Positions 14,581 to 14,785 of a stretch of 64,000 nt of DNA are shown piece by piece. Position 1 is the stretch's first letter, and the number at the start of each line of letters is the position of its first letter. The position numbers and the translations under genes are program-made. Where the stretch lies: the NCBI RefSeq assembly GCF_055900595.2, contig NZ_CM148325.1; one strand, written 5' to 3'. The notes beneath the pieces were generated by a model. That model was not told where the DNA came from. It was given only the letters and a program-made list of their open reading frames with translations, and made no database searches.

Positions 14581-14785
14581 GCATCAGGCAAGGCTGTTAT
14601 TGTCGGATGCGGCGTAAACGCCTTATCCGACCTACACAGAGCACCGGACCCGTAGGCCTGATAAGACGCGGCAGCGTCGCATCAGGCAAAGTTGTTATTG
14701 TCGGATGCGGCGTGAGCGCCTTATCCGACCTACACAGCAATGAACTCGTAGGCCTGATAAGACGCGGCAGCGTCGCATCAGGCAA
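14581..14785. repeat. Tandemly duplicated BIME (two units of about 105 bp, each a pair of inverted REP sequences)
   Basis: Unit tgttattgtcggatgcggcgt(a/g)a(a/g)cgccttatccgacctacacag...gtaggcctgataagacgcggcagcgtcgcatcaggca appears twice in direct succession between pepA and holC. Confidence 0.7.

What the first reader, a model, noticed from the sequence alone, without database searches (positions are those of the whole stretch)
14581..14785. Tandem duplication of a BIME unit between pepA and holC
Seen: an approximately 105-bp unit containing an inverted REP pair occurs twice head-to-tail. Duplicated BIMEs are sites of gyrase/IHF binding and copy-number polymorphism between strains. The arrangement superficially resembles a two-repeat array but has palindromic REP units and no unique spacers.
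Basis: seen in the sequence. Interest (0 to 1): 0.2.

Follow-up and report, generated by a model that had tools for sequence, protein, structure and literature searches.

The report
Two-unit BIME-2 REP array, pepA–holC
The spacer between pepA and holC holds two tandem copies of an ordinary E. coli BIME-2 repeat (a Y and a Z2 REP hairpin pair), a well-known element whose copy number at this site varies from 0 to 4 among Escherichia strains.

Summary
Window 14581-14785 contains a head-to-tail direct repeat: unit 1 at 14581-14678 (98 bp), unit 2 at 14679-14774 (96 bp), then an 11-nt start of a third copy. The units are 90% identical with one 2-bp indel. The period is 96-98 bp, not ~105.

Each unit holds one Y REP (+) and one inverted Z2 REP (-), joined by 12-16-nt linkers. 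That is a textbook BIME-2, not a BIME-1, so there is no L linker and no IHF consensus.

The K-12 homologue has one unit. It is already catalogued as a BIME-2 and carries mapped gyrase cleavage sites (Sutormin 2019, Table DS3).

In a spread sample of 59 complete E. coli genomes, the spacer classes were 1 unit (6), 2 units (10), 3 units (28) and an unrelated 133-bp non-REP spacer (15). The last class occurs in 1406 of 5426 genomes overall. Other Escherichia species representatives carry 1-4 units.

The window's two units are each closer to units in other strains than to each other, so this is an old, shuffled polymorphism and not a fresh duplication.

The most likely roles are a pepA 3'-UTR hairpin array (mRNA stabiliser and partial read-through attenuator) and a gyrase site. 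The feature is already known and of low interest.

The parts
13067..14578 (+). pepA (leucyl aminopeptidase A) CDS. Its stop codon lies immediately before the repeat array.
   Evidence: ORF list. Homologous positions are annotated as pepA in E. coli RefSeq records.
14579..14591 (-). Partial Z2 REP end (TTGCATCAGGCAA). It is identical to the last 13 nt of each full Z2 copy and marks the start of unit 1 directly after the pepA stop.
   Evidence: Sequence. The same motif recurs at 14677-14689 and 14773-14785.
14581..14678 (.). BIME-2 unit 1 (98 bp).
14602..14635 (+). Y-type REP 1 (stem 14602-14631 plus CTAC 14632-14635).
   Evidence: Match to the Y consensus. The RNA hairpin is -19.2 kcal/mol, z -4.9.
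14636..14651 (.). Short (S-type) linker 1 between CTAC and GTAG, 16 nt (ACAGAGCACCGGACCC). This is the most diverged part of the unit.
14652..14687 (-). Z2-type REP 1, inverted (GTAG 14652-14655, stem 14656-14687).
   Evidence: It has the same length as the Z2 of REP325 and is 7 nt longer than the Z1 of cueO-gcd. The hairpin is -21.9 kcal/mol.
14655..14730 (-). Rfam RF02564 (naRNA4) match at 76.9 bits against a gathering score of 59.5. It covers the Z2 of unit 1, the l-type linker (14688-14699) and the Y of unit 2, so it is one Y-l-Z2 module straddling the unit junction.
14679..14774 (.). BIME-2 unit 2 (96 bp), 89.8% identical to unit 1.
14700..14733 (+). Y-type REP 2.
14734..14747 (.). Short linker 2, 14 nt (ACAGCAATGAACTC).
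14748..14783 (-). Z2-type REP 2, inverted.
14808..14834 (+). holC leader block with the ribosome-binding site (ATTTAAATCCACCACAAGAAGCCCCAT). It is conserved across Enterobacteriaceae and marks the downstream limit of the variable, repeat-accepting part of the spacer.
   Evidence: 100% matches in Kluyvera, Citrobacter, Salmonella and other loci.
14837..15280 (+). [quoted passage not shown]

Best explanation
This is a two-unit allele of the chromosomal BIME-2 element that occupies the pepA-holC spacer in the genus Escherichia. Each unit is a Y REP and an inverted Z2 REP separated by short linkers.

Shown here: the array is part of a copy-number polymorphism of 1-4 units. Units are lost in register, and probably gained the same way, through the long stretches of identity between them. 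K-12's single unit is exactly a 3-unit allele minus 196 bp.

Inferred from published work on the same family:
(i) When pepA is transcribed, the four G+C-rich hairpins (-19 to -22 kcal/mol each, no U tract) form in its 3' UTR. They protect pepA mRNA from 3'-exonucleases and partly attenuate read-through into holC-valS, as shown for the BIME-2 array REP325.
(ii) On DNA, the Y REPs are preferred DNA-gyrase cleavage and binding sites, as mapped for the K-12 copy of this locus.
(iii) Unit gain and loss occur by unequal recombination or slippage, or by TnpA(REP)-catalysed strand exchange.
For: Anatomy: Y(+)-S-Z2(-)-l-Y(+)-S-Z2(-). There is a full-length match to the Rfam model built on the Y-l-Z2 unit of REP325 (76.9 bits). 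The architecture and period match REP325 (100 bp there, 96-98 bp here).

Definition: BIME-2 consists of y plus z2 REPs with short linkers, in tandem copies whose number varies by locus and by strain (PMC3333891).

K-12 homologue: listed as a BIME-2 with gyrase cleavage sites (PMC6379681 Table DS3). Y REPs are cleaved more often than Z2.

Polymorphism: spacer classes of about 160, 257 and 354 bp in E. coli, and 1-4 units in Escherichia species representatives. K-12 equals the GN05652 allele minus 196 bp, with a 33-nt ambiguous breakpoint. Near-identical neighbouring units in E. whittamii (99%), SCPM-O-B-8794 (99%) and GN05652 (98%) show recent unit turnover.

RNA level: four stable local hairpins and no intrinsic terminator in the spacer. 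REP325 acts as a dual stabiliser and partial terminator (bioRxiv 10.64898/2026.03.23.713779).
Against: No expression, mRNA half-life or gyrase data exist for this strain or for a 2-unit allele. The functional statements are transferred from K-12 (1 unit) and from REP325 (6 units).

Harris et al. report that 2-4-hairpin fragments of REP325 showed no detectable Rho dependence, and that REP effects depend on context. Attenuation here may therefore be weak.

26% of E. coli genomes lack the BIME at this site altogether, so any function is dispensable.

The array is inverted relative to the upstream gene's transcription when compared with REP325.
Confidence: 0.9

Rival explanations
1. It is a recent, lineage-specific tandem duplication of a single BIME, a fresh mutational event in this genome.
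For: Two head-to-tail copies are present. Recent duplications of this kind do occur at this locus in other genomes, for example E. whittamii with units 99% identical.
Against: The window's units are only 89.8% identical to each other. Each is closer (93.9%) to a unit of another strain: u1 to CFSAN064035 u1, and u2 to M00057 u1. Two-unit alleles occur in 10 of 59 sampled E. coli genomes and in two other Escherichia species representatives.
Confidence: 0.05
2. It is an naRNA4-like, nucleoid-associated non-coding RNA gene whose transcript, together with HU, bridges REP cruciforms.
For: There is an Rfam RF02564 match above the gathering score at 14655-14730 on the - strand. Qian et al. 2015 proposed this role for REP325 RNAs (PMC4550694).
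Against: The Rfam model is simply one Y-l-Z2 BIME-2 unit, so any BIME-2 matches it. Two further hits occur in this window. The scoring strand is antisense to pepA and holC, and the sense strand scores 55.6 bits, below the threshold. The scan found no promoter-like site. A 2026 preprint from the same laboratory group reports that REP325/naRNA4 does not measurably compact the nucleoid.
Confidence: 0.03
3. It is a BIME-1-type element that recruits IHF, as the first reader's 'gyrase/IHF' wording implies.
For: BIMEs as a class include IHF-binding members (PMC3333891).
Against: The CTAC-GTAG linkers are 14-16 nt, against about 35 nt in the K-12 BIME-1s at yaaX-yaaA and cueO-gcd. Neither strand of the spacer has an IHF consensus, even with one mismatch allowed, whereas the two BIME-1 controls do show one. 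The Z REPs have the long Z2 form. BIME-1 occurs as a single copy.
Confidence: 0.02
4. It is a minimal CRISPR-like or other spacer-acquiring array.
For: Regularly spaced palindromic repeats give a superficial resemblance.
Against: The palindromes alternate in type and orientation (Y+, Z2-). They belong to a dispersed family, with 10 REPs in this window and a median of 8 matching places per E. coli genome for the 601-nt query. The 'spacers' are themselves repeated as part of the unit.
Confidence: 0.005

Closest known systems
BIME-2 family of E. coli REP/BIME elements (Gilson/Bachellier classification, as summarised in Ton-Hoang et al. 2012, PMC3333891)
   Same: It has Y and Z2 REPs in alternating orientation, short linkers and tandem units of about 100 bp. 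It is intergenic, and copy number varies between strains.
   Different: Nothing essential differs. The linkers here are locus-specific in sequence, as is usual for BIME-2.
The K-12 MG1655/W3110 holC-pepA BIME-2 (Sutormin et al. 2019, Table DS3)
   Same: It is the orthologous locus, with the same Y and Z2 REPs and the same flanks. The K-12 unit is about 90% identical to the window's units.
   Different: K-12 has one unit (159-bp spacer) and the window has two (258 bp). The gyrase cleavage data exist only for the K-12 allele.
REP325 (yjdM-yjdN BIME-2 array, source of naRNA1-6; PMC4550694; bioRxiv 10.64898/2026.03.23.713779)
   Same: It has the same Y-l-Z2 module (Rfam RF02564 match of 76.9 bits), a similar period (100 bp against 96-98 bp), and a position between two tandem genes.
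   Different: REP325 has six units of near-identical sequence. The window has two units that are 90% identical. The linkers differ in sequence, giving 77-79% identity over the whole unit. The array orientation relative to upstream transcription is opposite.
BIME-1 (RIB/RIP elements with an IHF site)
   Same: It contains a Y REP and an inverted Z-type REP.
   Different: BIME-1 uses Z1 (7 nt shorter in the cueO-gcd example) and a linker of about 35 nt carrying an IHF consensus, and it occurs as a single copy. None of these applies here.

Membership tests
BIME-2 | Composed of Y-type and Z2-type REPs. | tested here: met
   Y REPs lie at 14602-14635 and 14700-14733. The Z REPs at 14652-14687 and 14748-14783 have the same length as the Z2 of REP325, with 2 loop differences, and are 7 nt longer than the Z1 of cueO-gcd. 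The module aligns full-length to the Y-l-Z2 Rfam model.
BIME-2 | REP and inverted REP alternate in orientation and are separated by short linkers (S between CTAC and GTAG, and s/l/r on the other side). | tested here: met
   The CTAC-GTAG linkers are 16 and 14 nt. The Z2-to-Y linker is 12 nt between stems.
BIME-2 | Occurs as tandem copies whose number varies between loci and strains. | tested here: met
   There are 2.1 copies here. E. coli genomes have 1, 2 or 3 units, and Escherichia species representatives have 1-4.
BIME-2 | Bound and cleaved by DNA gyrase in vivo. | not testable with these tools
   This is documented for the one-unit K-12 orthologue (2 Cfx, 1 RifCfx, 2 Oxo cleavage sites; PMC6379681 Table DS3). 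It has not been measured for this allele.
REP (repetitive extragenic palindrome) | Imperfect palindrome with a conserved GTAG/CTAC tetranucleotide at the foot, extragenic, and dispersed in many copies. | tested here: met
   All four REPs carry CTAC or GTAG and a stem with an internal mismatch. The window holds 10 REPs. The query matches a median of 8 places per E. coli genome. No CDS is annotated in the spacer.
BIME-1 | Long L linker carrying an IHF-binding consensus, a Z1 REP, and single copy. | tested here: not met
   No WATCAANNNNTTR match occurs in the spacer with 0 or 1 mismatch. The positive controls yaaX-yaaA (1 mismatch) and cueO-gcd (exact) do show it. The linkers are 14-16 nt against about 35 nt.
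naRNA4 (Rfam RF02564) | Score at or above the gathering threshold, on a strand that is transcribed into a discrete RNA. | tested here: inconclusive
   The - strand scores 76.9 bits against a threshold of 59.5, but it is antisense to pepA and holC. The + strand scores 55.6 bits, below the threshold. No promoter-like site was found. Transcription was not measurable here.
CRISPR array | Direct repeats in one orientation separated by unique spacers. | tested here: not met
   The repeats alternate in type and orientation, and the inter-repeat sequences are themselves duplicated.

The most novel reading that the evidence does not exclude
The number of BIME-2 units at this site, or its replacement by the unrelated 133-bp allele, may act as a heritable, promoter-independent dial. 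It would set the ratio of pepA expression to holC-valS read-through, and the local gyrase load, so that the 0/1/2/3/4-unit alleles segregating in Escherichia would be functionally different regulatory variants rather than neutral length variants.
Probability: 0.2. Interest if true: 0.35.

Novelty: already known. Interest (0 to 1): 0.08.

Why it matters
It matters little beyond correct annotation. The interval should be labelled as a REP/BIME-2 array, not as a gene, a CRISPR-like array or an sRNA. The two spurious ORFs across it (14597-14785 on the - strand, 14607-14813 on the + strand) and the Rfam naRNA4 hit should not be taken as genes.

The locus is a convenient natural allelic series of 0-4 units next to essential or near-essential genes (holC-valS). 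It could be used to test the recently proposed idea that REPs tune expression through the 3' UTR.

The length polymorphism is also a ready strain-typing marker.

Tried and rejected
- Tandem Repeats Finder found nothing at a minimum score of 30. The repeat was instead shown with the seed-extension finder and a gapped alignment.
Only the positions were used. A strict core pattern was used later.
- A fixed-loop REP pattern missed the Y REPs and this locus's Z2 REPs, and was abandoned.
- The RefSeq K-12 feature table held by the tool listed no REP repeat_region features for this interval. K-12's classification therefore came from Sutormin et al. Table DS3.
- The promoter scan found no sigma-70-like site in 14300-15000, and the terminator scan found none in the spacer. 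The holC promoter remains unlocated.
- A literature search on pepA/holC/valS operon structure returned nothing useful. A search for the REP-near-stop-codon/tmRNA work also returned nothing useful. That mechanism was not pursued. As I recall it needs a REP within about 15 nt of the stop codon, and the first full REP stem here starts 24 nt after it.
- The organism could not be pinned down. No GTDB Escherichia representative fetched, and none of 5426 complete E. coli genomes, is more than 98.2% identical in valS. Another 24 kb of the window reaches 99.0%. I treat it as E. coli sensu lato with a locally divergent segment.
- The whole-spacer RNA MFE fold pairs Y1 with Y2 over a long range. I regard this as an alternative that follows trivially from repeated palindromes, and I rely on the local hairpins.

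Full report
OBSERVATION

The window carries pepA (13067-14578, +) and holC (14837-15280, +), followed by valS (15280-18135). These are identified from the ORF list and from homologous positions annotated in E. coli RefSeq genomes. The 258-bp spacer between pepA and holC contains the reported repeat.

The repeat finder gives two overlapping direct-repeat families. One is 14581-14639 against 14679-14737 (93% identical, spacing 98). The other is 14636-14695 against 14732-14791 (88% identical, spacing 96). A gapped alignment of unit 1 (14581-14678) with unit 2 (14679-14774) gives 88/98 identities with one 2-bp indel. The local score between the two halves of the spacer is 54, against 6.8 +/- 0.96 (maximum 12) in 300 shuffles.

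The period is 96-98 bp rather than about 105. An 11-nt third start (GCATCAGGCAA, 14775-14785) makes it about 2.1 copies. Tandem Repeats Finder reported nothing, which may be because there are only two diverged copies.

ANATOMY

Each unit holds two REPs.
- The Y-type REPs read on the + strand. Their stems are at 14602-14631 and 14700-14729, each followed by CTAC.
- The Z-type REPs read on the - strand. GTAG lies at 14652-14655 and 14748-14751, and the stems at 14656-14687 and 14752-14783.
- The CTAC-to-GTAG linkers are 16 and 14 nt. They are the most diverged part of the units.
- The Z-to-Y linker is 12 nt.
- A 13-nt fragment identical to the outer end of the Z REP (TTGCATCAGGCAA, 14579-14591) sits directly after the pepA stop codon.

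As RNA read from pepA, each REP forms a stable local hairpin of -19.2 or -21.9 kcal/mol (z about -4.5 to -4.9). None is followed by a U tract, and the scan found no intrinsic terminator in the spacer and no promoter-like site.

WHICH KIND OF BIME

Ton-Hoang et al. (PMC3333891) summarise the classification.
- BIME-1 is Z1 plus Y. It occurs as a single copy and has a long L linker that often carries an IHF site.
- BIME-2 is Z2 plus Y with short linkers. It occurs as tandem copies whose number varies by locus and by strain.

I tested the discriminating features against real controls.
- The Z REPs here have the same length as the Z2 REPs of the canonical BIME-2 array REP325 (yjdM-yjdN, K-12), with two differences in the loop. 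They are 7 nt longer than the Z1 of the K-12 BIME-1 at cueO-gcd.
- The K-12 BIME-1s at yaaX-yaaA and cueO-gcd have linkers of about 35 nt. They carry an IHF consensus, exact in cueO-gcd and with one mismatch in yaaX-yaaA.
- The window's spacer has no such match on either strand, even with one mismatch allowed.
- REP325 has the same Y-linker-Z2-linker plan with a 100-bp period.
- The Rfam model RF02564 (naRNA4) was built on the 77-nt Y-l-Z2 unit of REP325 (PMC4550694). It aligns end to end with 14655-14730 at 76.9 bits, against a gathering score of 59.5.

The element is a BIME-2.

THIS LOCUS IS ALREADY CATALOGUED

In K-12 the spacer is 159 bp and holds one unit. Sutormin et al. 2019 list 'holC-pepA' among the BIME-2 intervals. 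They recorded 2 (ciprofloxacin), 1 (rifampicin plus ciprofloxacin), 0 (microcin) and 2 (oxolinic acid) gyrase cleavage sites there (PMC6379681, Table DS3). They also report that gyrase cleaves Y REPs much more often than Z2 REPs, and that BIME-2 sites behave as transcription-independent strong gyrase sites.

POLYMORPHISM

I searched all 5426 complete E. coli genomes with a query made only of the last 300 nt of pepA and the first 300 nt of holC. The spacer length was read from the span of each match. The 59 informative records, taken at even steps down the ranking, fall into discrete classes:

| Spacer length | Content | Records |
|---|---|---|
| 133 bp | unrelated, non-REP | 15 |
| 159-161 bp | one unit | 6 (includes K-12 derivatives) |
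| 255-258 bp | two units | 10 |
| 353-356 bp | three units | 28 (includes O157:H7 and B strains) |

The 133-bp class has an unrelated, non-REP sequence (L083). A direct search finds that sequence once per genome in 1406 of 5426 genomes (26%). This agrees with the 15/59 in the sample and so validates the sampling.

Among GTDB species representatives, unit counts are as follows:
- E. albertii: three units.
- E. whittamii and Escherichia sp. E1V33: two units each.
- Escherichia sp. MOD1-EC7003: one unit.
- 'E. coli' SCPM-O-B-8794: four units.

Other genera (Salmonella, Citrobacter, Klebsiella, Kluyvera and others) have spacers of 62-314 bp. These hold their own REP types or other palindromic or ERIC-like elements. 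The last ~27 nt before the holC start codon (14808-14834) are conserved throughout. The spacer upstream of that block is a general landing pad for small repeats.

AGE AND MECHANISM OF COPY-NUMBER CHANGE

The window's units are 89.8% identical to each other. Unit 1 is 93.9% identical to unit 1 of strain CFSAN064035, and unit 2 is 93.9% identical to unit 1 of strain M00057. The two units are therefore old paralogues, shuffled among lineages, and not a fresh duplication.

Turnover is nonetheless ongoing at this locus. Neighbouring or alternate units are 98-99% identical in E. whittamii, SCPM-O-B-8794 and GN05652. K-12's 159-bp spacer equals the 355-bp three-unit spacer of GN05652 with exactly 196 bp (two units) removed. 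The breakpoint can lie anywhere within a 33-nt stretch of identity. That is the signature of in-register, homology-mediated unit loss by unequal exchange or replication slippage. TnpA(REP)-catalysed cleavage and strand exchange at BIMEs has been shown in vitro and proposed as an amplification route. Nothing here distinguishes between these routes.

HOW IT MOST LIKELY WORKS

Shown here:
- the structure;
- the family membership;
- the polymorphism;
- the in-register deletion.

Inferred from published work on the same family:
(i) In pepA transcripts, the four hairpins sit in the 3' UTR. They are expected to block 3'-exonucleolytic decay of pepA mRNA and to reduce read-through into holC-valS. Harris et al. 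(bioRxiv 10.64898/2026.03.23.713779) showed exactly this dual role for REP325. They note that fragments of 2-4 hairpins showed no detectable Rho dependence, and that effects depend on context. Any attenuation here may therefore be modest.
(ii) On DNA, the two Y REPs are probable gyrase sites.

The function is dispensable, because a quarter of E. coli genomes lack the BIME at this site.

RIVALS

- An naRNA4-like RNA gene is unlikely. The Rfam model is simply a BIME-2 unit, and two further hits occur in this window. The scoring strand is antisense to the flanking genes, and the sense strand scores 55.6 bits, below the threshold. The nucleoid-compaction role of naRNA4 is itself now disputed.
- A BIME-1/IHF element, a CRISPR-like array and a recent duplication are each contradicted by the tests above.

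ORGANISM

pepA-holC-valS is about 96% identical to K-12. valS is at most 98.2% identical to any of 5426 E. coli genomes. Window 30000-54000 reaches 99.0%. The window is E. coli sensu lato with a locally divergent segment. No genome in the collection has this exact spacer allele; the best match is 96.2%.

VERDICT

This is a correctly spotted but ordinary feature: a two-unit allele of a known, catalogued BIME-2. Novelty: already known. Interest: low.

Noticed in passing
L083:501-633 (E. coli NR329), orthologous to window 14579-14836: 26% of complete E. coli genomes (1406/5426) carry an unrelated single-copy 133-bp spacer instead of the BIME-2. It has a different palindrome (CCCTCACCCTAACCCTCTCCCTAAGGGAGAGGG). 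The same palindrome family occupies the pepA-holC spacer in Pseudocitrobacter and several other genera. From memory it resembles the Box C repeat; this was not tested.
   Followed up: partly
window 14808-14834: A 27-nt block just upstream of the holC start codon (ATTTAAATCCACCACAAGAAGCCCCAT, includes the RBS) is 100% conserved from Escherichia to Kluyvera, Citrobacter and Salmonella. Everything upstream of it is replaced by genus-specific REPs or ERIC-like elements. It may contain the holC-valS promoter -10 or leader, but the promoter scan found no site.
   Followed up: partly
window 13625-13819 (-), inside pepA: There is an Rfam match to Ysr276 (Yersinia antisense sRNA model) at 185.8 bits against a gathering score of 100, antisense to the pepA coding sequence. 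It probably reflects pepA sequence conservation captured by an antisense-RNA model.
   Followed up: no
window 41885-41968, 38394-38435, 48119-48195, 28422-28435, 57167-57180: Other REP/BIME elements are present in the window. There is a Z2/Y pair at about 41.9 kb (naRNA4 model, 86.2 bits), a Y/Z2 pair at about 38.4 kb, and a further naRNA4-model hit at about 48.1 kb. There is also a short Z1-type REP at about 28.4 kb and a lone Y at about 57.2 kb. The pepA-holC array is the only multi-unit one.
   Followed up: partly
window 13067-18135 versus 30000-54000: The pepA-holC-valS segment is unusually divergent. valS is at most 98.2% identical to any of 5426 complete E. coli genomes, whereas a 24-kb stretch further on reaches 99.0%. 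This suggests a recombined or rare-lineage segment around the BIME locus.
   Followed up: partly
window 31343-31458 (-), 61958-62080 (-), 57303-57360 (+), 2529-2610 (-): Other Rfam matches above the gathering score are a Mg riboswitch (Magnesium-II), ES239 sRNA, STnc450 sRNA and a tRNA.
   Followed up: no
window 14597-14785 (-) and 14607-14813 (+): Two mechanical ORFs of 62 and 68 aa run across the REP array. No CDS is annotated at the homologous place in any E. coli record inspected, so they should be regarded as spurious.
   Followed up: yes
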